Source of the DNA: a virus
Lineage: Duplodnaviria; Caudoviricetes
Reading direction: 5' to 3' (one strand)
IMG/VR virus record: IMGVR_UViG_2910942425_000008
Coordinates: 12,672-76,671 of that record
DNA: 64,000 bases
Below the pieces are notes generated by a model that did no database searches, was not told where the DNA came from, and saw nothing but the letters and a program-made list of their open reading frames with translations. The position numbers and the translations under genes are program-made. Positions 24,577 through 36,222 of the stretch are shown in pieces. How positions within the stretch are numbered: the first letter of the stretch is position 1; each line of letters starts with the position of its first letter.

Positions 24577-25116
24577 TCAAACCAATTCATATTCTTTAAT
24601 TTTAATTTTATAATATTCTATCTGCTCTTTTATTTCTTCGGTCGTCATTTTCAGTGGTTTATTTCTTATCTCTAATAGTTGTTCATATCTCTCTATGCCA
24701 ATACGCATAGGAAGAGATAGCGAATATTCAGTAGTATTGCCGTGACGGTGTTGGTTGCAGGCGACACACTGACCGTGTACGTTGTCTTCGTTGAACCTTA
24801 GATTGGGATAAGCCCCGAGTGAGAAAAAATGCCCTGCATCGTATTTTCCTACTAAAGAACATCCACACGATATGCACGGCATACCTTTGTCTCTCAACCT
24901 GATATATTTATTGAATACCTTTTGCAGATCGTTTAGCCACTGCGAATGCGTTTTTAGCCGCTCTTTCGCCTTCGCTTTTTCCTTCGCCTTGTCTTTCTGC
25001 ACCTTGCTTTTCGCCTTGGTTGCTATACAAGAAAGGCATAGCCTCGATACGATTATGCCATTTCTGTATATGGGCTCAAAGTTGGTTTTGCACGATCGGC
25101 ATTTGATTACAACCAT
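24577..25116 (-). CDS. ninG: NinG/Rap-like recombination nuclease
   Basis: FNKYIRLRD...CISCG...DAGHF...LRFNEDNVHGQCVACN. Confidence 0.9.
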   Translation of the reverse strand: MVVIKCRSCKTNFEPIYRNGIIVSRLCLSCIATKAKSKVQKDKAKEKAKAKERLKTHSQWLNDLQKVFNKYIRLRDKGMPCISCGCSLVGKYDAGHFFSLGAYPNLRFNEDNVHGQCVACNQHRHGNTTEYSLSLPMRIGIERYEQLLEIRNKPLKMTTEEIKEQIEYYKIKIKEYELV

Positions 25117-25544
25117 TGTCTTTGTCTTTTCGTTTCTTCCTGAATATGTTCCAGAAACTTATCTTCGTTAGCTTCGGGCAGATAGATACCGGCTTCATTG
25201 GCGCTCCAATTCCTAAACCGGTCTATGGCATCTGTCATTTGTTTGGTATCTATTTCTGCTGAACTCCTTATTATTGTCACACTTCCCAGATAATCATCTT
25301 CACGCTCGTACAGGAATATATCAGGATTGCATAACTTCTTGAAGTATTCCTTTTTCACAAATTTGAGATTATTTCCTGTCTCTATGCAGAACCACGAAAT
25401 AATAAGGTGTAGATAGTTATTCTGCGATAATATCCGTTTCTCCCGCTTTTCTGTGAGGTCTACTTTCTTTTTTTTGTCAATCATGTATTGCACTCTGGTT
25501 AAGAAAGATTTTACCCCTGTTTCCGTTGTAAGATCGAAATACAT
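25107..25544 (-). CDS. NinB-like protein
   Basis: RILSQNNYLH...RSSAEIDTKQM. Confidence 0.7.
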   Translation of the reverse strand: MYFDLTTETGVKSFLTRVQYMIDKKKKVDLTEKREKRILSQNNYLHLIISWFCIETGNNLKFVKKEYFKKLCNPDIFLYEREDDYLGSVTIIRSSAEIDTKQMTDAIDRFRNWSANEAGIYLPEANEDKFLEHIQEETKRQRQWL

Positions 25545-25556
25545 AAGTCCAGATAA

Positions 25557-25925
25557 TTAGAAGGGCAAATCATCATCAGCCGGTGCGCTATTCCCCTGTG
25601 ACGTATTTTGCACCGATTGCGGCCTGCCGCCCAACAACTGCAAATTGTTTACAAACACACATTGGTCGGCGATGGCTTTGTTGTCTTTATTGATGTAGGC
25701 CGATGTGTAAGGCATGCCACTGATATACACCTGCTGGCCTTTCTTCAGGTAGTTGCCAAGCTTGTTGCTTTCGCCTACCAGCCTCAGGCATCGCACCCAG
25801 TAGGTCTTATTCTGTCCGTTACGCTTCTCGGTGTAAGCTATAGAGAACGAATAGTAATCTTTGCCGTTGATAGGCTTCGTTTCGGCATCTTGTCCGATAT
25901 TGCCTATGATTTCTAGTCTGTACAT
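25557..25925 (-). CDS. ssb: Single-stranded DNA-binding protein
   Basis: IIGNIGQDAE...LKKGQQVYISG...DDLPF tail; start 25925. Confidence 0.9.
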   Translation of the reverse strand: MYRLEIIGNIGQDAETKPINGKDYYSFSIAYTEKRNGQNKTYWVRCLRLVGESNKLGNYLKKGQQVYISGMPYTSAYINKDNKAIADQCVFVNNLQLLGGRPQSVQNTSQGNSAPADDDLPF

Positions 25926-25930
25926 GATTA

Positions 25931-26551
25931 TCAATATTTTACGTAATAGTTTTTTATTTGTTGTAATATAGTACATCTGCCCCTAATGCTGTTTATAAAT
26001 TCTTCGTTGCGAGGAATGCGAAACTCGATATATTCGTCAGGCGTTATATTTCTTTTGATATTTTCTTCGTCATCGTATGTCTGGACTTCGAGATAGCACA
26101 AGGTTGCAGCATCTAATTCTGAACAGAATAGCTGGTATTGAACTTGCTCATAATTATGCTTGTAGTGTTTCCGTATAAATTCAAGATATTCTTCTTCCGG
26201 AGATTCGCGATACATATTTATATCGAGATAGTCATTTGCAAAGACCGTTTTCAGCTCAATGAAATCAACAACTTTATTGTGTTCCACCTTCGCAAAATCT
26301 AGAGTCGCCCTGCAAACATCCATTTCTTTGCTCACCACTTTATATTGTGGCAGATATTCATCACTCAATGCCAAAAAGAAGCGGTCTTCGAGTATCGCTC
26401 CTGCCCGGAGCGCATTTATAGGGCTACGTTTTGCATTATAGTGTGGTATTTCATCCGAAACAAAGCGCCTCAATAGTTTTCTGTGTGACTCAGTAGTGAT
26501 GCCCGACATTAAAGCGACTACATCACCGCTACCTATATACATACTCCTCAT
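25931..26551 (-). CDS. YqaJ / lambda-exonuclease-like nuclease
   Basis: YIGSGDV, ATLDF, IELKT, QVQYQL; ATGA coupled to ERF stop at 26551. Confidence 0.7.
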   Translation of the reverse strand: MRSMYIGSGDVVALMSGITTESHRKLLRRFVSDEIPHYNAKRSPINALRAGAILEDRFFLALSDEYLPQYKVVSKEMDVCRATLDFAKVEHNKVVDFIELKTVFANDYLDINMYRESPEEEYLEFIRKHYKHNYEQVQYQLFCSELDAATLCYLEVQTYDDEENIKRNITPDEYIEFRIPRNEEFINSIRGRCTILQQIKNYYVKY

Positions 26552-27126
26552 ACCTTTTCCTTTATATGCCCACTTTTTACCCAAGCGTTATAAGTAGTTT
26601 CTATTTGCTTGTTCGTCAGGTCTTCCATAACACCAATATCATATCTTTTAAGAATGGTATTCAGGGCATTATTATTTGCAAGCATTACATCATATACAGC
26701 CTTTCGCTTGTCCGACAACACTTCTTCGGGTGTTCGATTTTCATGTTTTTCGCTGTCTATTTCCTTGGAGTCATCTATGCAGAATAATCCATTCAGGGCG
26801 TATTTGCGGGCGTACGAACTTGCCGAACCTGTTATCTGAGCTGCGTCCATCCCTTTCTTTGTTTCTTCCTCACGGGCATAGGCCTTGACTATCGCCGATT
26901 TACCTTTTTCATTAGTTAGAATTGCAGTAGCCTCTATGTATACCCTGCCGCCTACATCTTTGACTTCGTCCGATAAAACAAGTGTGCATTGCATTTCCTC
27001 TAAAAGGGGCTTAACTGCCTCCAAGATATCCTCACAACTGCGATAATTGTAATTGCCAAACTTGTTTAGCTGATTTTTGGGGGCTTTTAACCGAGATTGT
27101 ATTTTTATTAATTCTTCCATTGTCAT
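26548..27126 (-). CDS. erf: ERF-family single-strand annealing protein
   Basis: LKAPKNQLNKFGNYNYRSCEDILEAVKPLL...GSASSYARKYALNGLF. Confidence 0.9.
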   Translation of the reverse strand: MTMEELIKIQSRLKAPKNQLNKFGNYNYRSCEDILEAVKPLLEEMQCTLVLSDEVKDVGGRVYIEATAILTNEKGKSAIVKAYAREEETKKGMDAAQITGSASSYARKYALNGLFCIDDSKEIDSEKHENRTPEEVLSDKRKAVYDVMLANNNALNTILKRYDIGVMEDLTNKQIETTYNAWVKSGHIKEKV

Positions 27127-27133
27127 TATAATT

Positions 27134-27454
27134 TTAAGTGAACTGAAAACTTTTCTGGTTCCCGTTACCATATCTGATTTGTTTGATTGTTGCTTTGAAT
27201 GGAAAGTCATCTTTGTTTATCTGGTCTAAGTCATGTTTGATGTATTTGGAATCGGTAAAAAACTTACATTCCTTTCCATCAAATCTGACTTTAACAATGT
27301 ATCTGTTATCGCCATGCTGGGTCTTTATCCCGGCCTGAAAATCAATCACCTCTACCTCACAATTTAAGATGTCGCTAATAGACACTACCTGAACATCAAA
27401 TATGGCTTTACCGTCATCCAGTGGCTTTATGCCAAGTTCTGAGAACTTCTTCAT
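27134..27454 (-). CDS. RT-linked small beta-rich protein (candidate DGR accessory)
   Basis: 106 aa, overlaps the RT 3' end by 41 nt. Confidence 0.75.
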   Translation of the reverse strand: MKKFSELGIKPLDDGKAIFDVQVVSISDILNCEVEVIDFQAGIKTQHGDNRYIVKVRFDGKECKFFTDSKYIKHDLDQINKDDFPFKATIKQIRYGNGNQKSFQFT

Positions 27455-28427
27455 TTTTCACAACAGTTTTAATCAGGTTCAGCGAATTACAATATTTTGT
27501 CCAGCCTATCCACGCACAAATGGCTATCCGGTACTCTTTTGGTGTGATGTTTTTATACTTATTCAACTTCGCTATACGCCTGCAAAATTTCTTCTTGATG
27601 CGTTTGCGTAGCCGAGTGTGGGTATGGTAGAAAACATATCCGACAAAGTCGATACCGCGAGCTGTGACAGGAAATACTTGGAAATTATCTTTAAGTTCGA
27701 GTTTCAACCTGTCATTCAGATATTTCCCTATTTCTATCTGTAAGTCATGCAAATAGTTTTTATCATCGCTCAATATTACCATGTCGTCTGCGTACCTGTA
27801 ATAGTATTTTACTTGTTTCTCCTCTTTCAACCAGTGATCGAAATAAGACAGATACAGGTTAGCCAAAAATTGAGAAAGGTAATTCCCGATCGGCAAACCG
27901 GGTGCAGAGTTGATAATGTCATCCAAAAGGTTCAATAGCCGTGCATCCTTTATTTTCTTTCTGACTATTAATTTCATTACTTCGTGGTCAATAGATGGAT
28001 AGAACTTTCGTATGTCCATTTTCAGACAGTAACTTGTATTTTCACTGTCTTTTAAATCACGTTTGATGTGCTTTAATGCACCATGAATCCCCCTGCCTTT
28101 GATGCAGGAATAAGTATGCGAAATAAATACAGATGCCCATATCGGTTCTAATATATTCATTATGGTATGTTGCACAACCCTGTCGCGGAAAGGAAGCCGG
28201 TATATTATCCGTTCTTTCGGGTCGGTAATTGTAAATACATCATATTCCGATATCGTATAAGTTCCATTTATCAAATCGTCTTGAATCATTTGCATGTTTT
28301 CAATCAGATTGCTTTCGAATTGTTTTACACCATAAGATTTTCCTTTGCCTTTCCTCGCTTTGCTATAAGCCAGATAAAGGTTATCGGCGTCACAGATTTT
28401 ATCATATAAATTCCCAAATCGCTTCAT
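27414..28427 (-). CDS. DGR reverse transcriptase
   Basis: MKRFGNLY start, RDRVVQH, MDIRKFYPSI, GLPIGNYLSQ, YADD; no En domain. Confidence 0.95.
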   Translation of the reverse strand: MKRFGNLYDKICDADNLYLAYSKARKGKGKSYGVKQFESNLIENMQMIQDDLINGTYTISEYDVFTITDPKERIIYRLPFRDRVVQHTIMNILEPIWASVFISHTYSCIKGRGIHGALKHIKRDLKDSENTSYCLKMDIRKFYPSIDHEVMKLIVRKKIKDARLLNLLDDIINSAPGLPIGNYLSQFLANLYLSYFDHWLKEEKQVKYYYRYADDMVILSDDKNYLHDLQIEIGKYLNDRLKLELKDNFQVFPVTARGIDFVGYVFYHTHTRLRKRIKKKFCRRIAKLNKYKNITPKEYRIAICAWIGWTKYCNSLNLIKTVVKNEEVLRTWHKATG

Positions 28428-28533
28428 ATAGCCTTTGTTTCTAATCGGAGCCTTCGGTTTCCCTACCAGCACCTTTTGAATTGTTATTTTTCGCCAAGGG
28501 GCGAGGCCTTTGCCTTGATTTTTTATCTTTACA
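28428..28533 (-). ncRNA. DGR spacer (3' part of template RNA) between TR and RT
   Basis: Non-coding; hairpin TCGCC/GGCGA at 28491-28504. Confidence 0.55.
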
Positions 28534-28611
28534 TAGGTGGGAGCTGCTCCCTGCATTCGCATTCGTATTATCGTAGTTCGAGTTGTTGAACGTGAAGGCC
28601 GCAGGAGAGCC
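28534..28611 (-). repeat. DGR template repeat (TR)
   Basis: GGCTCTCCTGCGGCCTTCACGTTCAACAACTCGAACTACGATAATACGAATGCGAATGCAGGGAGCAGCTCCCACCTA; six AAY codons, 21 adenines. Confidence 0.95.
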
Positions 28612-28638
28612 GACTCTAAGGCAAACAGCCCTTTTTCA

Positions 28639-29034
28639 TTATTTCAATTGCACTGCTTCCCATATTTCAGGGAATGTTTTACCGATGTGGTCGGACGCTT
28701 CACGGCTCAAAACGCGAAGGCGGGAGCAGCTCCCCGCAACCGCAAACGTAAGATCGCAGCGCGAGAAGAAGAACGTGAAGGCCGCAGGAGACATCCAAAA
28801 CCACGGTGTATATTTCCATTGGTTATGATTATTCCAGTCTATTTCACCTAGTCCACATTCACGTTCAATCTTACGAGCTGCCTCTACTATTACTTTCGCA
28901 TTATAGCAGGCTTCTTCATGCTCTCTCATATCTTCCGGATAAAATGAAAAGTCAATATGAGGGCGGCCTGTTTCGGCATAAGCATTATCTAATGTTTTTA
29001 GCCTTTCTTCGAGTAGTTGTTTTAAGTTTTTCAT
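28639..29034 (-). CDS. DGR target protein 1 (131 aa)
   Basis: Contains VR1; KYTPWF...SPAAF...SRL. Confidence 0.9.
   Translation of the reverse strand: MKNLKQLLEERLKTLDNAYAETGRPHIDFSFYPEDMREHEEACYNAKVIVEAARKIERECGLGEIDWNNHNQWKYTPWFWMSPAAFTFFFSRCDLTFAVAGSCSRLRVLSREASDHIGKTFPEIWEAVQLK
28717..28791 (-). repeat. Variable repeat VR1
   Basis: 75 bp, 17 mismatches to TR, all at TR adenines. Confidence 0.95.
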
Positions 29035-29064
29035 TGTGATAACTATTTTTCTTGATGTTATAAA

Positions 29065-29523
29065 TTATGATTCCAGATATTCACGATAAAAATCAATATG
29101 CTTTGTGCCTACGATTTTAGAGAGTTTCTCGCTTTTTAGGGCGAGGCGGGAGCCGCTCCCCGCAAACGCAAGCGAATTAACGCAGTTCGAGCCGCGGAAC
29201 GCGAAGGCCGCAGGAGAGCCTTGTGTCAGGAATCGCGGAAAATACCTCCACTTTGAACTATTATAGATATCCATTTTCTCCCCTTCGTTGTATGCCTCGG
29301 TCATCACAACGCATCGGTAGTATTTACGGAAGTGGTCGCGTAACCGCTCAGGTAGCTCTGTAAATTCAGGCGTATCTGGTAGTCCTGTTTCGGCGAGCAT
29401 ATCTTCCCATGTGTTGATACGCTCTGTGATGTCTTTGCCGAAAGTTGATTCTAATGCAGACTTCATACTGTCAGACGATTTGTATAATCCTCTGAGTTTC
29501 TGTTCTAATGATTTTGTTTCCAT
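29065..29523 (-). CDS. DGR target protein 2 (152 aa)
   Basis: Contains VR2; RYFPRF...GSPAAF...GSRL. Confidence 0.9.
   Translation of the reverse strand: METKSLEQKLRGLYKSSDSMKSALESTFGKDITERINTWEDMLAETGLPDTPEFTELPERLRDHFRKYYRCVVMTEAYNEGEKMDIYNSSKWRYFPRFLTQGSPAAFAFRGSNCVNSLAFAGSGSRLALKSEKLSKIVGTKHIDFYREYLES
29143..29220 (-). repeat. Variable repeat VR2
   Basis: 78 bp, 16 mismatches to TR, all at TR adenines. Confidence 0.95.
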
Positions 29524-29876
29524 AAGTTATTATTGGTTTAAATTGGTAATGATTCTAAAATTGCCAGTCCCTTCTAGTCTAACAAGCGCGTATCTGTTTC
29601 GACCTGTATCCGGCGTTTATCGGGATTCTGTCCCCCTGAAACCGCCAAAGGTTATTACATCGAATTGTACGAACAGGGGTATATCGTATGTACATGGTTT
29701 GGTTTTTCACCGCGGCACCATAAGCATAGCTTTTAGCAGTACATATTTTATCTTTTTTCTTGTCGCTTTCTTTTAAGAACTCACATATCGATTTAGAGAG
29801 AGAAAGCTTTTCAATACGTCAAAGAACTTGTCTTTGTGGCTACCCCTAACCGAATAGGGACGGTCTTACCTGTAGC

Positions 29877-30207: not shown

Positions 30208-30609
30208 TTAAATTAGAAATGGATCTGTTTCAAGTCCTTTAGGACGTTTTGAGCGTCTCATTCTTGATGTTTCCGCAATCTCTATTCTTCTGTAAAAAGA
30301 TGTTGTTTCTTGAACTATATCAAAGCAGATAAGTGAAATAAATACACAAACGATTGTCGTTTTTATAGCATCTTTATTTTTAGCTATGAAAACCCTAGCC
30401 TTCTTTATGGCTATGCGTTTTGCATACAAAATGCTTAATTCGCTTCTGTTTCGAACACCTAACACATCAAATGCTGTCATTATCTGGTTGTTGATTGTAC
30501 ATAAGGCCTTAAAATATTTATCGGCTATTTCTTGCTTTTCCATTCCGGAAGCATAATCCTGCGAAACAACATCTACACGCTCAGTCAGTTCAGTAAATAC
30601 TCTTTCCAT
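30208..30609 (-). CDS. LuxR/GerE-type HTH protein
   Basis: ELTER...YASGMEKQEIADK...TINNQIMTAFDVLGVRNRSEL. Confidence 0.75.
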   Translation of the reverse strand: MERVFTELTERVDVVSQDYASGMEKQEIADKYFKALCTINNQIMTAFDVLGVRNRSELSILYAKRIAIKKARVFIAKNKDAIKTTIVCVFISLICFDIVQETTSFYRRIEIAETSRMRRSKRPKGLETDPFLI

Positions 30610-33368: not shown

Positions 33369-34007
33369 ATGGAACTTAACATAAAAGAACTAAGAGATAA
33401 ATTTGGAAAATCACAACAAGCGGTATCAAATGATACTGGAATATCTAGGGATAAAATAGCTAAATGGGAAACTACATCTCACAGACCTAAAACAGAAGAT
33501 TATATTAAATTAAAAAATTATTTCGAATCGCTAGCTAAAGAAGATGGAAATACAGATATTCCTTTAAAATTCTTACAAGCTGAAAATCAAGGTCAACCAA
33601 TACTTGATATACGTGTATGTGCTGGATATGGCATTGGATTAGAGGGTGATGAAAATAAAGTGATTGAGTGGGTAAATATTCCAAAGTTTAACGGCTGCTA
33701 TGGCGTTACCGTTTATGGAGATAGTATGTATGATAAATATAAATCTGGAGATATAATATTCGTTAGACCGATAGAGGGACGTAACGACTTTGACTTTGGG
33801 CAATGTTATGTAATAATCACAAGCGAAGATCGATATATAAAAAATATATATGAAAGTGGAAGGGGTGACGAATATATTACTATGACATCATATAACACAG
33901 ATATAAATCCTGATGGAAGGCGAAAGTTTCCAGATAGAGATATGCTTGTGGACGACATAAAATTTTTATATAAAGTAGCAGGGAAATTAACAAGAGATCA
34001 ACTATAA
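33369..34007 (+). CDS. CI-like repressor (HTH plus S24 peptidase)
   Basis: N-terminal HTH, CAGYG cleavage-site region, VYGDSM Ser, YIKN Lys. Confidence 0.9.
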   Translation: MELNIKELRDKFGKSQQAVSNDTGISRDKIAKWETTSHRPKTEDYIKLKNYFESLAKEDGNTDIPLKFLQAENQGQPILDIRVCAGYGIGLEGDENKVIEWVNIPKFNGCYGVTVYGDSMYDKYKSGDIIFVRPIEGRNDFDFGQCYVIITSEDRYIKNIYESGRGDEYITMTSYNTDINPDGRRKFPDRDMLVDDIKFLYKVAGKLTRDQL

Positions 34008-34018
34008 AAATTAACATT

Positions 34019-34414
34019 ATGAAAAAACTATTATTGTTACTTATACTTCCATTATTTTTTTCGTGTGGAGGAGATGATGAACAGGATCAAAACATAACGC
34101 CTAACCGAAAATATAAATATGTTATTTATAATGATCCTGACTACATTAATAAGTGTGATGTTTATGATATAGTAATAATAAATAATGATGCTTTCGGAAA
34201 ACTTGTTGATACAGATAAAATTGAGGAAATAAAGTTTGGTGAAAAATCGGATACAATATACACGAATGGATGTAATATTTTCTTTACTCATAAATACAAG
34301 GATAAAGACGGAAAAGAGCAATATGGACGGATTAAAAATGATATATTCATTGAGGAAGATTATCCTAATATTATAAGTCTATCCGGATTTCACGATGATA
34401 GAAAAAGAAATTAA
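34019..34414 (+). CDS. Lipoprotein
   Basis: MKKLLLLLILPLFFSC. Confidence 0.8.
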   Translation: MKKLLLLLILPLFFSCGGDDEQDQNITPNRKYKYVIYNDPDYINKCDVYDIVIINNDAFGKLVDTDKIEEIKFGEKSDTIYTNGCNIFFTHKYKDKDGKEQYGRIKNDIFIEEDYPNIISLSGFHDDRKRN

Positions 34415-34859
34415 CCTCATTTATAAATATTTCATCATGCTAACACTTTCATTCGGCAAATCTACATCGCCTCGTTATCGCGACGCCGTAAAGCTTGCAG
34501 AGAAATTCACCGGGTATAAAAATACAGGAGGTAAAATATCTGTGTTGCTATCAGTGAAAGAAGTATTTGAGAAGTGGGAGTATTTCAATCAATTGTTTTG
34601 GACTGCTGTAGATTGGAAAGAAACAACATTATCTTATGAAGATATGACTTATCATTCGCATACGGATAAAACACGTATTTTTTATGCTCTGCAAAATTCA
34701 CATTGGAAATGGATAAATTATGTAGAACAAAAGTTATCTTTGCAATTCAATATTTCGGAAGATAATCTTGATTTATCAAAATTGGATACTACGAATATTG
34801 ATGATAAAACAGCAGATTTGTTGATAGACTTCTATAGCATAAAAAAGCAGGGTTTTTAA
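34395..34859 (+). CDS. Hypothetical protein
   Basis: 154 aa (start possibly MLTLSFG). Confidence 0.65.
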   Translation: MIEKEINLIYKYFIMLTLSFGKSTSPRYRDAVKLAEKFTGYKNTGGKISVLLSVKEVFEKWEYFNQLFWTAVDWKETTLSYEDMTYHSHTDKTRIFYALQNSHWKWINYVEQKLSLQFNISEDNLDLSKLDTTNIDDKTADLLIDFYSIKKQGF

Positions 34860-34863
34860 ACTG

Positions 34864-35088
34864 TTTGTCGCTATTTTGTTACTTTGAAATATAACTTGTT
34901 GATTATGTATATAATACATAGTTCCGGTCGTGCTACTGGGAAACCCGCCTGGAAAGGCGGGTTTCTTTGTTTATAAAGGGTTTGAGGGTGTTTCTGTTTT
35001 CTGAAACTATCTATATTTTGTTACTTTTAGGACATTTTTTGTTACTAATTTGTTACCTTTGTTTTATTGGTAACAAAAATCAGTAACA
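34864..35088. other. attP-like region
   Basis: TTTGTTAC arm-like repeats at 34874, 35016, 35037, 35049 and inverted at 35069, on both sides of a TATGTAT/ATACATA inverted repeat and a core followed by a terminator. Confidence 0.6.
34940..34970 (+). terminator. Intrinsic terminator
   Basis: GAAACCCGCC/GGCGGGTTTC 10-bp stem followed by TTTGT. Confidence 0.8.
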
Positions 35089-35094
35089 CACGGT

Positions 35095-36222
35095 ATGGTT
35101 GGATTATCTATAAATTTTATTTTTGATGTAAAAGGTGTATCTAGTCTTGAAAAGCAGGGCTTGTTACAGATAGTTATAAGGCAAAATAAAACATCTCGGA
35201 GGAAATACATATCTACTGGTATCAGATTGTACAAAAATCAATTCTCAGATAAAAAAGGATTTACCTGTATTAACCATGAAAATGCAAAAGACGTTACGTC
35301 TACAGCATGGGAAATGTATAATAAAATAGAGAAGTTCTGTCTATCTGACAGATGCATAAAATGGGAAGATATAGAAAAATGGGATAAAGATAAAAACGAT
35401 CTTGACTCCGTTATTAAATTTATTGAATCGGAGATGAAGTTGCGAAATATGGAATATAACACTTTGAAGGCGCATGTTACTTTGGTGAATAAGTTAAATG
35501 ACTTCAAGAAGATAAAGATTTTCTCTGATCTAACCTATTCCAATATAACAGAGTTTGATAAATACATGCGAGACAAAGGTATTGGAAATGTTTCTATAAA
35601 TAAAAATCATTCTCTTTTCAATTTGTATATCAAAATAGCAATAAACAAGGATTTGATAGAGAAAAATCCATATAATAAATTCACTCCGCCCAAAGGGAAA
35701 AATAACGATCCTGTTTTTCTCACACAAGATGAAGTGGAAAATATTAAAAAAATATCAGGGCTTAACGATAAACTTGAAAAGGTCAAAGATTTGTTTATTT
35801 TCCAATGCTACACCGGTATGGCATATATTGATATGCAGGGTTTCTCAAAAAATAGTATTCAAGTTGTAGACGAACAAGAAGTCATTAGGAGTAGTCGAAC
35901 CAAGACGGATGAATCTTTTATTTTATTATTTCTGCCTGATGCAAAAAAAATAGCTGAAAAGTATAATTACAATTTACCTAAAATAAGTAATCAAAAATAC
36001 AATGACTATTTAAAATTATTGATTGCTCATCCCAATATTAATATAAATAAAAAGGTGACCTCTCACACCGCCAGACACACATTTGCCACATATCTACTAA
36101 ATAAAGGAATACCAATAGAAACAGTATCCAAAACCTTGGGGCATGCAAGCATAAAGCAGACACAGTTATATGCCAGATTGTTAGGCAAGAAGGTTATAGA
36201 TGACATGAAGAAATTATTATAG
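35095..36222 (+). CDS. Tyrosine integrase
   Basis: Arm-binding N-terminus, RTKT, HTARHTFAT, LGHASIKQTQLYA. Confidence 0.95.
   Translation: MVGLSINFIFDVKGVSSLEKQGLLQIVIRQNKTSRRKYISTGIRLYKNQFSDKKGFTCINHENAKDVTSTAWEMYNKIEKFCLSDRCIKWEDIEKWDKDKNDLDSVIKFIESEMKLRNMEYNTLKAHVTLVNKLNDFKKIKIFSDLTYSNITEFDKYMRDKGIGNVSINKNHSLFNLYIKIAINKDLIEKNPYNKFTPPKGKNNDPVFLTQDEVENIKKISGLNDKLEKVKDLFIFQCYTGMAYIDMQGFSKNSIQVVDEQEVIRSSRTKTDESFILLFLPDAKKIAEKYNYNLPKISNQKYNDYLKLLIAHPNININKKVTSHTARHTFATYLLNKGIPIETVSKTLGHASIKQTQLYARLLGKKVIDDMKKLL

What the first reader, a model, noticed from the sequence alone, without database searches (positions are those of the whole stretch)
28534..29523. DGR that hypermutates two tandem small cytoplasmic early proteins instead of a tail fibre
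Seen: one TR and two VRs, with 17/21 and 16/21 adenines substituted and zero non-A mismatches. The targets are 131 and 152 aa, lack signal or TM segments, keep about 25 invariant residues after the VR, and sit between the early regulators and the ERF/exonuclease/SSB genes. No VR copy was seen in tail genes. Known: classic phage DGRs (BPP-1) diversify receptor-binding fibres. Inference: intracellular variable binding proteins, possibly an evolving anti-defence or host-takeover repertoire.
Basis: partly seen in the sequence, partly recalled or inferred. Interest (0 to 1): 0.82.

Follow-up and report, generated by a model that had tools for sequence, protein, structure and literature searches.

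The report
Phage mutator rewriting two small early proteins
A prophage of a Dysgonomonas-like bacterium carries a complete diversity-generating retroelement that rewrites a short loop in two small soluble proteins encoded among its early genes rather than in its tail; this cassette type is common and already catalogued (function unknown), so it is a good new example, not a new kind of system.

Summary
On the minus strand one template repeat (TR, 28535-28611) matches two variable repeats (VR1 28718-28791, VR2 29144-29220). Every mismatch in the shared core falls on a TR adenine (17 and 16 of 21), and the window holds no other copy. The cassette reads: 152-aa target, 131-aa target, TR, a structured spacer RNA (Rfam RT-17), a DGR-type reverse transcriptase, and a conserved 106-aa OB-fold-like gene. 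There is no Avd. It lies between the phage regulators and the ERF/exonuclease/SSB genes.

About 62 of 75 related viral contigs carry the same cassette. Near-identical relatives differ almost only inside the VRs, and 600 of 628 of those differences sit at TR-adenine positions, so this lineage diversifies in nature. Four complete relatives have no remote VR.

The targets have no signal peptide, no membrane segment, no Pfam family and no solved-structure match. The "non-structural" reading is supported by context only. The anti-defence role is untested.

This is not new. Roux et al. 2021 list the family as target cluster PC_00007 ("Phage_other/Unknown", 611 members). Wu et al. 2018 hold the same small tandem targets. 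This scan has flagged small early-operon DGR targets about 31 times on other DNA.

The parts
29065..29523 (-). Target 2, long form (152 aa): a helical N-terminal part, a short beta-hairpin, the VR loop, then two C-terminal helices
   Evidence: ORF. phrog_11581, unknown function. 50 homologues at 41-75% identity in Dysgonomonas, Prevotella and metagenomes. AF2 model at pLDDT 75, with the VR stretch 101-123 below 50.
29144..29220 (-). VR2
   Evidence: 16 of 21 TR adenines are substituted and there are no non-A mismatches.
28639..29034 (-). Target 1, short form (131 aa): a paralogue lacking the first ~30 residues of the long form
   Evidence: On a tree the short forms of 14 loci cluster together, which points to an old duplication.
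28718..28791 (-). VR1
   Evidence: 17 of 21 TR adenines are substituted and there are no non-A mismatches in the 74-nt core.
28535..28611 (-). Template repeat (TR). It is AAC/AAT-rich and reads ...SPAAFTFNNSNYDNTNANAGSSSHL
   Evidence: It starts 27 nt after the target 1 stop, so there is no room for avd.
28426..28508 (-). [quoted passage not shown]
   Evidence: cmscan gives 44 bits against a gathering score of 40.4, E 3e-6, full-length model. The same motif is found in 6 of 13 related loci, always between TR and RT. Two helices show compensatory changes.
27414..28427 (-). DGR reverse transcriptase (about 337 aa from M46; the ORF is open back to 28562)
   Evidence: RVT_1 1.5e-18 and phrog_1423 1e-129. 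Motifs IGNYLSQ and YADD are read. 60-71% identical to the RTs of the related cassettes.
27134..27454 (-). 106-aa conserved gene overlapping the RT 3' end by 41 nt; OB-fold-like, a candidate accessory factor
   Evidence: phrog_19665. It follows the RT in about 60 loci. Mean column identity is 70%. AF2 pLDDT is 84. The best structural matches are SSB/OB-fold proteins at Z 5-6.
24577..27210 (-). Downstream recombination genes: ERF, RecE/lambda-exo-like, SSB, NinB, NinG
30208..30609 (-). Upstream early regulator-like gene on the same strand
   Evidence: Weak match to phrog_10300, transcriptional regulator, E 2e-4. The same family lies upstream of the cassette in related loci.
33369..36222 (+). CI-like repressor (33369-34007) and integrase (35095-36222), which mark the lysogeny module

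Best explanation
This is a complete and probably active diversity-generating retroelement. It belongs to the Bacteroidota-phage lineage that Roux et al. 2021 file as DGR clade 1 with target cluster PC_00007.

How it works, inferred from the BPP-1 paradigm: the TR and its RT-17 spacer are transcribed. The RT, which has the GxxxSQ motif, copies the TR into cDNA and misincorporates opposite adenines. The cDNA then replaces the VR in each of two adjacent genes. About 10 codons change, in a loop roughly three quarters of the way along each small protein.

There is no Avd. A conserved OB-fold-like 106-aa protein, translationally coupled to the RT, is the likely nucleic-acid-binding accessory (inferred).

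The two targets are an old long/short paralogue pair. They are soluble, have no export signal, and are encoded in the leftward early operon between regulators and recombination genes. They are therefore most likely non-virion, intracellular variable binding proteins that act on a variable host or competitor factor (inferred; roughly 0.6 for intracellular, roughly 0.3 for anti-defence specifically).
For: - TR/VR anatomy: mismatches fall only on TR adenines, and the window holds only 3 copies.
- RT: family and motifs fit a DGR RT.
- Spacer: it reaches the Rfam RT-17 gathering score and shows covariation.
- Conservation: the same cassette of 2-3 small targets, TR, RT and the 105/106-aa gene occurs in about 62 of 75 viral loci, always with A-specific TR/VR mismatches.
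- Activity in relatives: cassettes that are 99-100% identical outside the VRs differ at 8-16% of VR positions, and 600 of 628 of those differences are at TR adenines.
- No remote targets: four CheckV-complete relatives have exactly TR plus 2 VRs.
- Context: regulators, RecT/Erf, exonucleases, methyltransferases, Ant, SSB, helicase and primase in 16 diverse loci and in Dysgonomonas prophages.
- Solubility: no transmembrane or signal features.
- Literature: PhANNs called 97.55% of PC_00007 'Other' and only 1.64% tail (Roux supplement). The gene from the same IMG genome as L003 is listed there as PC_00007.
- Paralogue pair: the long/short split is old.
- Accessory: p106 is conserved and has an OB-like fold.
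Against: - No read-level or population data exist for this exact element. Its nearest relative is about 75% identical, so current activity is inferred from intactness and from relatives.
- No expression or localisation data exist. Early-operon position does not exclude a virion or released role. DeepCapTail called 21% of PC_00007 'tail'.
- The AF2 model is weakest exactly in the VR (pLDDT below 50), so nothing can be said about the binding surface.
- The RT clade also serves tail-fibre targets without p106, for example crAss cr53_1. So p106 may serve the targets rather than retrohoming.
- Some relatives keep the targets but have lost the RT.
- In a few loci a large terminase subunit gene lies within 1-2 kb upstream.
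Confidence: 0.8

Rival explanations
1. The small targets are virion-associated or released receptor-binding accessories, for example adaptors that dock on a fibre. The DGR would then serve host range as in BPP-1, despite the gene position.
For: - All experimentally studied phage DGR targets bind surface receptors (BPP-1; general knowledge).
- The RT cluster t122 also serves PC_00002 tail targets.
- The VR end ...AGSGSRL resembles the ...VGTRITF / ...VGSRLCF end of lectin-fold tail targets.
- DeepCapTail flags 21% of PC_00007.
Against: - The genes are never found next to tail genes in 16 diverse loci or in the Dysgonomonas prophages.
- PhANNs gives 97.55% 'Other'.
- The proteins have no fibre-like or collar domains, and no longer fused forms were found.
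- The cassette is co-oriented and tightly packed with regulators and recombination genes.
Confidence: 0.12
2. The targets work for the lysogen rather than for the lytic phage. They would be hypervariable intracellular sensors or blockers that recognise proteins of superinfecting phages, giving prophage-encoded exclusion or defence.
For: - DGR-diversified putative antigen sensors exist in bacterial conflict systems (PMC10907252, listed).
- The cassette lies close to the immunity region.
- Some relatives keep the targets after losing the RT, as expected if a fixed specificity can still be useful.
Against: - The genes lie on the lytic early strand, divergent from CI.
- There is no effector domain and no PADLOC match.
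- There is no evidence of a promoter active in lysogens (searches were uninformative).
Confidence: 0.12
3. This copy is a relic. The VR/TR differences record past activity, and the cassette no longer diversifies.
For: - No population data could be obtained for this element.
- Decayed cassettes exist among relatives.
Against: - The RT ORF is full length with intact YADD and GxxxSQ motifs.
- The TR, the RT-17 spacer and p106 are all intact.
- The VRs carry no non-A mismatches. A relic would have accumulated some, as reported for old TR/VR pairs in PMC12386605.
Confidence: 0.1

Closest known systems
Target cluster PC_00007 / DGR clade 1 of Roux et al. 2021 (PMC8144416), and reference DGRs t120 (NZ_AMSG01000002.1) and t121 (AKZJ01000008.1) of Wu et al. 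2018 (PMC5758913)
   Same: - Same protein family. L003's target, 62% identical to target 2, comes from IMG genome 2651869758, whose 332-aa RT and target are listed as PC_00007, 'viral', clade 1.
- VR at relative position 0.72-0.77.
- Primary and secondary targets adjacent to the RT.
- t120 has a 157-aa and a 123-aa tandem pair upstream of its RT.
   Different: Nothing essential differs: this is another member. The literature gives only 'Phage_other/Unknown' (Roux) or the VR class label 'CLec3' (Wu). As far as I could find, it does not describe the early-operon position, the conserved 106-aa gene or the RT-17 spacer.
Bordetella phage BPP-1 DGR (mtd-avd-TR-brt)
   Same: - Adenine-specific TR-to-VR transfer.
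- VR near the 3' end of the target.
- TR, then a structured spacer, then the RT. In BPP-1 the spacer is Rfam RT-10 (PMC5737381).
   Different: - BPP-1's target is a 381-aa C-type-lectin tail-fibre tip; here there are two soluble proteins of 131 and 152 aa with no detectable lectin fold.
- There is no Avd; an OB-fold-like gene follows the RT.
- The spacer is RT-17, not RT-10.
- 25 residues follow the VR.
Second, non-structural DGR target of Quimbyvirus (Benler et al. 2021, PMC8008677)
   Same: A Bacteroidota phage DGR rewrites a protein encoded away from the structural module, near methyltransferases and nucleases, and a role in phage-host conflict was proposed.
   Different: - Quimbyvirus also has a tail-side target, and its remote target was reported as C-type lectin.
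- Here both targets are non-structural and adjacent to the RT, and no lectin fold is detected.
- tblastn of target 2 against GenBank phages found nothing.
Burkholderia phage Magia DGR (PMC7883833)
   Same: An isolated temperate myophage whose DGR has VRs in 'relatively short reading frames'.
   Different: It infects a Proteobacterial host and has Avd. Homology to these targets was not tested here.

Membership tests
Diversity-generating retroelement | TR/VR repeat pair whose mismatches are confined to TR adenines | tested here: met
   17/21 and 16/21 adenines are changed, with 0 non-A mismatches in the core. There are 3 copies against 0 expected by chance.
Diversity-generating retroelement | Adjacent reverse transcriptase with the DGR-type [LIV]GxxxSQ motif and a YxDD catalytic motif | tested here: met
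   RVT_1 1.5e-18 and phrog_1423 1e-129. IGNYLSQ and YADD are read directly in the translation.
Diversity-generating retroelement | VR inside the 3' part of a protein-coding target | tested here: met
   Both VRs end 25 codons before the stop.
Diversity-generating retroelement | Accessory protein Avd (present in about 74% of DGRs; Wu 2018) | tested here: not met
   Only 27 nt separate the target 1 stop from the TR. None of the cassette's ORFs matched an Avd family in the Pfam scan. Avd is not universal: Wu's Lineage 3 lacks it.
Diversity-generating retroelement | Ongoing adenine-directed VR variation in populations | tested here: inconclusive
   No sequencing run could be listed for this element. 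In near-identical relatives, 600 of 628 VR differences are at TR adenines, against 0-1% divergence outside the VRs.
PC_00007 small phage DGR targets (Roux 2021) | Sequence homology to listed members, VR at about 0.75 of the length, tandem position next to the RT | tested here: met
   L003 (62% identity) comes from the IMG genome whose target is listed as PC_00007, with VR position 0.76.
C-type-lectin-fold DGR variable proteins (Mtd, TvpA, TaqVP) | Lectin fold carrying the VR | tested here: inconclusive
   - No Pfam family.
- No PDB sequence match.
- AF2 model: Foldseek finds nothing at E<=0.001 and the best VIA Z is 3.2, with no lectin among the top rows.
- hhalign to a crAss Mtd-like target aligns 14 columns only.
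- Wu 2018 labelled the VR class CLec3 by VR similarity.
- The model is unreliable in the VR itself.
Rfam RT-17 RNA (RF03020) | Covariance-model score at or above the gathering threshold, next to an RT gene | tested here: met
   44 bits against 40.4, full-length, immediately 5' of the RT start.
OB-fold single-strand nucleic-acid-binding proteins (for the 106-aa gene) | Five-stranded closed beta-barrel with similarity to SSB/RPA-type domains | tested here: inconclusive
   AF2 pLDDT is 84. The top matches are nearly all OB/SSB proteins, but only at Z 5-6 and Foldseek E>0.1. No sequence family was found apart from phrog_19665.

The most novel reading that the evidence does not exclude
The long and short targets form a two-chain intracellular binder whose two DGR-rewritten loops make one combinatorial site. 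The phage would use it early in infection to neutralise or recruit a variable host factor, such as a defence protein. The cassette would run on an Avd-independent mechanism using the OB-fold-like protein and the RT-17 RNA. That would make it a phage-encoded, antibody-like, adaptive counter-defence module.
Probability: 0.2. Interest if true: 0.85.

Novelty: new member of a known kind. Interest (0 to 1): 0.5.

Why it matters
Almost everything known about phage DGRs concerns receptor binding by tail fibres. This family is large: 611 non-redundant members in Roux 2021, and 3,390 cluster representatives at 50% identity. It is the clearest case of phage hypermutation aimed at something other than the virion, and nobody has said what it binds.

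The window adds a clean, intact example with both targets next to the RT. Comparison shows that cultured carriers exist (Dysgonomonas sp. BGC7, D. macrotermitis DSM 27370, D. gadei, Paludibacter sp. 221), so the question can be tested at the bench.

The comparison also ties two orphan elements to this DGR lineage: the Rfam RT-17 RNA and the phrog_19665 protein. Both bear on how Avd-less DGRs work.

Tried and rejected
- Sequencing runs: none was listed for 27400-29600, so read-level VR variation could not be examined and read laying was not used.
- Whole genome: none is held for the window, so remote VRs outside the 64 kb could not be searched. Complete relatives were searched instead.
- Fold searches with the target model: PDB Foldseek gave no match at E<=0.001; VIA-wide gave a best Z of 3.2 on helical fragments; BFVD returned only uncharacterised phage proteins.
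- The ESM Atlas returned only unnamed viral clusters.
- PDB sequence profile search: nothing below E 0.18.
- The targets and p106 have no PADLOC, NCBIfam or Pfam match.
- tblastn of target 2 against 50,697 GenBank phages: no match.
- Search for longer fused relatives: none, which is weak evidence. Members with N-terminal extensions have no Pfam domain.
- Promoter and terminator scans and a Bacteroidetes -33/-7 pattern search were uninformative.
- The GGGAGCNGCTCCC palindrome at the 3' end of the window's TR and VRs is not conserved in relatives, so I dropped it as a recognition element.
- Wu 2018's 'CH1' accessory (160-169 aa, acidic) was considered as a possible mislabelled long-form target. 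It could not be checked because no supplement is held.

Full report
**1. Observation**

All relevant genes lie on the minus strand. Three copies of a ~77-nt repeat were aligned and compared base by base.
- TR: 28535-28611.
- VR1: 28718-28791, inside the 131-aa ORF 28639-29034.
- VR2: 29144-29220, inside the 152-aa ORF 29065-29523.

With the flanking base 28534 included, the TR has 21 adenines. VR1 differs at 17 of them and VR2 at 16. No other base differs within the shared core. A pattern made from the TR with every A replaced by N finds only these three sites in the 64-kb window, even with 3 mismatches allowed, against 0 expected in shuffles. Each target keeps 25 residues after the VR. Neither has a hydrophobic segment or a signal-like N-terminus.

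**2. Anatomy of the cassette**

In the direction of transcription the order is as follows.
- Long-form target (152 aa).
- Short-form target (131 aa).
- A 27-nt gap.
- The TR.
- A ~107-nt spacer.
- The reverse transcriptase.
- A 106-aa gene that overlaps the RT end by 41 nt.

*RT.* It matches RVT_1 and phrog_1423. It carries IGNYLSQ, the DGR-type GxxxSQ motif, and YADD. The ORF is open back to an ATG inside the TR, but the alignment with relatives puts the start at M46 (28427).

*Spacer.* It reaches the gathering score of Rfam RT-17 (RF03020): 44 bits against 40.4, window 28426-28508. The same motif is found between TR and RT in 6 of 13 related loci. An independent RNAalifold run shows two helices with compensatory changes. 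Weinberg et al. 2017 described RT-1 to RT-19 as motifs next to RT genes. They tied only RT-10 to a DGR (BPP-1) and speculated that others serve other DGRs (PMC5737381). Here RT-17 occupies the corresponding place.

*No avd.* There is no room for it, and none of the cassette's ORFs matched an Avd family in the Pfam scan.

*The 106-aa gene (phrog_19665).* It follows the RT in about 60 related loci. It is more conserved than the RT or the targets, at 70% mean column identity. It is predicted with pLDDT 84 as a small beta-barrel. Its best matches are nearly all OB-fold single-strand-binding proteins, at modest scores: Z 5-6 and Foldseek E>0.1.

**3. Context**

On the same strand, downstream: ERF, a RecE/lambda-exo-like nuclease, SSB, NinB, NinG, an SNF2-type helicase, methyltransferases and DnaB.

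Upstream: small ORFs and a regulator-like gene. Beyond those, on the other strand, lie a CI-like repressor and an integrase. The lysis and myovirus tail genes follow.

The cassette thus occupies the place that accessory host-interference genes hold in the leftward early operon of lambdoid phages. This last point rests on general knowledge of lambda and P22 and is an inference.

**4. Relatives**

*Family size.* Target 2 has 50 homologues at 41-75% identity in Dysgonomonas, Prevotella and metagenomes. A profile search of 1.84 billion cluster representatives finds 3,390 at E<=0.001. Nearly all are 115-190 aa, with some ~300-aa tandem fusions.

*Same cassette.* In IMG/VR, 75 loci encode a relative. 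About 62 of them have the same cassette of two or three tandem small targets, TR, RT and the 105/106-aa gene. In every one the TR/VR mismatches are adenine-specific.

*Shared TR design.* The TR design is shared across loci: F-x-F, a run of AAC/AAT/GAT/TAC codons, then ...A-G-S-x-S-x-L. The last three or four TR adenines are always G (and the final one T) in the VRs, which gives the conserved AGSGSRL. This may reflect selection on the scaffold or an IMH/IMH*-like asymmetry.

*Activity.* Where cassettes are 99-100% identical outside the VRs, they differ at 8-16% of VR positions. For example, L007 against L009 shows 0 of 2,267 differences outside and 20 of 153 inside. Over all such pairs, 600 of 628 VR differences lie at TR adenines. 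This is population-level evidence that the lineage is active.

*No remote targets.* Four relatives that CheckV rates complete have exactly three copies of the repeat, so no tail gene is targeted there either.

*Flanks.*
- In 16 diverse loci the flanking genes are regulators, RecT/Erf/recombinases, SbcC, exonucleases, hydrolases, DNA methyltransferases, Ant anti-repressors, helicase, a processivity factor, SSB and PAPS reductase.
- A large terminase subunit lies upstream in a few loci.
- No tail families appear among the listed matches.
- In Dysgonomonas sp. BGC7 and in an ENA assembly, the order is integrase or host DNA, small HTH genes, long target, short target, RT, the 105-aa gene, then primase, methylases or FtsK-gamma.

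*Old duplication.* On a maximum-likelihood tree the short forms of 14 loci cluster together. The long/short label needs only 2 changes, against about 12 for shuffled labels. The pair is therefore an old duplication kept throughout the lineage.

*Decay.* Some relatives have lost the RT but keep the targets and the TR.

*Carriers.* They span Bacteroidota: Dysgonomonas, Paludibacter, Proteiniphilum, Phocaeicola, Dyadobacter, Parapedobacter and Chitinophagaceae.

**5. What the targets are**

- Pfam, NCBIfam and PADLOC give nothing. PHROGs gives phrog_11581, of unknown function.
- An AF2 model built on 23 sequences has pLDDT 75. It shows four or five helices (confident, about 90, for residues 31-80), a short hairpin, the VR stretch 101-123 below 50, and two C-terminal helices.
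- Foldseek against the PDB and a full VIA-align scan of 48,161 chains give no meaningful match; the best Z is 3.2. BFVD and the ESM Atlas return only uncharacterised phage proteins.
- A profile-profile comparison with the lectin-type tail target of crAss phage cr53_1, whose RT is 69% identical at DNA level, aligns only 14 columns around AGSGSRL/VGTRITF.
- I could not show a C-type-lectin fold, and with a model this poor in the VR I cannot exclude one.
- Column entropy across 157 family members peaks at the codons that hold TR adenines, between near-invariant scaffold residues F107, F109, A119, A121-G122 and R126-L127.

**6. What is already known**

*Roux et al. 2021 (PMC8144416).* The supplementary tables list IMG genome 2651869758, which is the source of L003. 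The entry has a 53,858-bp contig, a 332-aa RT, and a target in PC_00007 with VR position 0.76, called viral, DGR clade 1. PC_00007 has 611 sequences. PhANNs.55% 'Other' and 1.64% tail. DeepCapTail% tail. The annotation is 'Unknown', class 'Phage_other'. Of the nine viral clusters in that tail-prediction table, it is one of only two annotated 'Unknown' (the other is PC_00009-viral) and has by far the lowest tail prediction.

*Wu et al. 2018.* The target file held with that paper carries these reference DGRs. t120 has a 157-aa and a 123-aa tandem pair. t121 has a 131-aa target. Both clearly share the architecture seen here and are labelled VR class CLec3. Wu et al. also noted that their Lineage 3 lacks avd.

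*Others.* Benler et al. 2021 described a non-structural second target in Quimbyvirus and proposed a role in phage-host conflict. Phage Magia has VRs in short reading frames.

*This scan.* It has flagged small early-operon DGR targets about 31 times on other genomes.

I found no paper that assigns a function to this family. I also found none that links it to RT-17 or to the 106-aa gene.

**7. Verdict**

- The sequence observation is fully confirmed.
- The element is a genuine and probably active DGR of a known, catalogued type.
- The non-structural reading is well supported by conserved gene context and by the absence of any tail-gene VR. It remains an inference without expression or virion data.
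- The anti-defence idea is plausible but has no direct support.
- Novelty: a new member of a known kind.
- The modest new points are two. RT-17 is assigned as the spacer RNA of this lineage. An OB-fold-like gene is recognised as strictly linked to the small-target cassette; it is absent from the related crAss DGR.
- Interest is moderate. The function of this large family is an open and now testable question, but the finding itself would not surprise a DGR specialist.

Noticed in passing
window 28426-28508 (-): The TR-to-RT spacer is a full-length match to Rfam RT-17 (RF03020). The same motif sits in the same place in 6 of 13 related loci, and two helices covary. The paper that described the RT motifs tied only RT-10 to a DGR, so RT-17 can be assigned to this DGR lineage.
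   Followed up: yes
window 27134-27454 (-): A 106-aa gene (phrog_19665) is translationally coupled to the RT. It is conserved in about 60 related cassettes at 70% column identity and is predicted to be OB-fold-like. It is missing from the crAss cr53_1 DGR, which has a related RT, so it may serve the small targets rather than the RT.
   Followed up: partly
P0027 (homologue; alignment A2): One homologue is a chimera: a long-form N-terminal part and VR, followed by the C-terminal tail typical of the short form (...RLRVLSEIAADHIGKTFPEIWEAVQLK). This suggests recombination between the two VR-bearing paralogues.
   Followed up: no
L027, L042, L054: These relatives keep both targets. L042 and L054 also keep a TR (none was detected in L027). 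All three have lost the RT and the 106-aa gene; L042 retains a 32-aa RT remnant. These are decayed cassettes with frozen VRs.
   Followed up: partly
L001:4942-5703 (-), crAss phage cr53_1 tail target: The annotated Mtd-like DGR target contains an in-frame stop about 100 codons before its end under table 11. The cause may be stop-codon recoding or a split gene.
   Followed up: no
window 29524-29876: A ~350-nt stretch without a convincing ORF lies directly upstream of the long-form target. It could hold a promoter or regulatory region for the cassette. No Rfam match was found there.
   Followed up: partly
P0058, P0059, P0061, P0070, P0080 and others: Proteins of about 250-350 aa carry two copies of the family domain, so the long and short targets occur fused into one polypeptide in some phages. 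This fits the idea that the two act together.
   Followed up: no
window 28535-28560, 28718-28743 and 29144-29169 (-): The 3' end of the window's TR and VRs holds the palindrome GGGAGCNGCTCCC. Relatives lack it, so it is probably not a general recognition element.
   Followed up: partly
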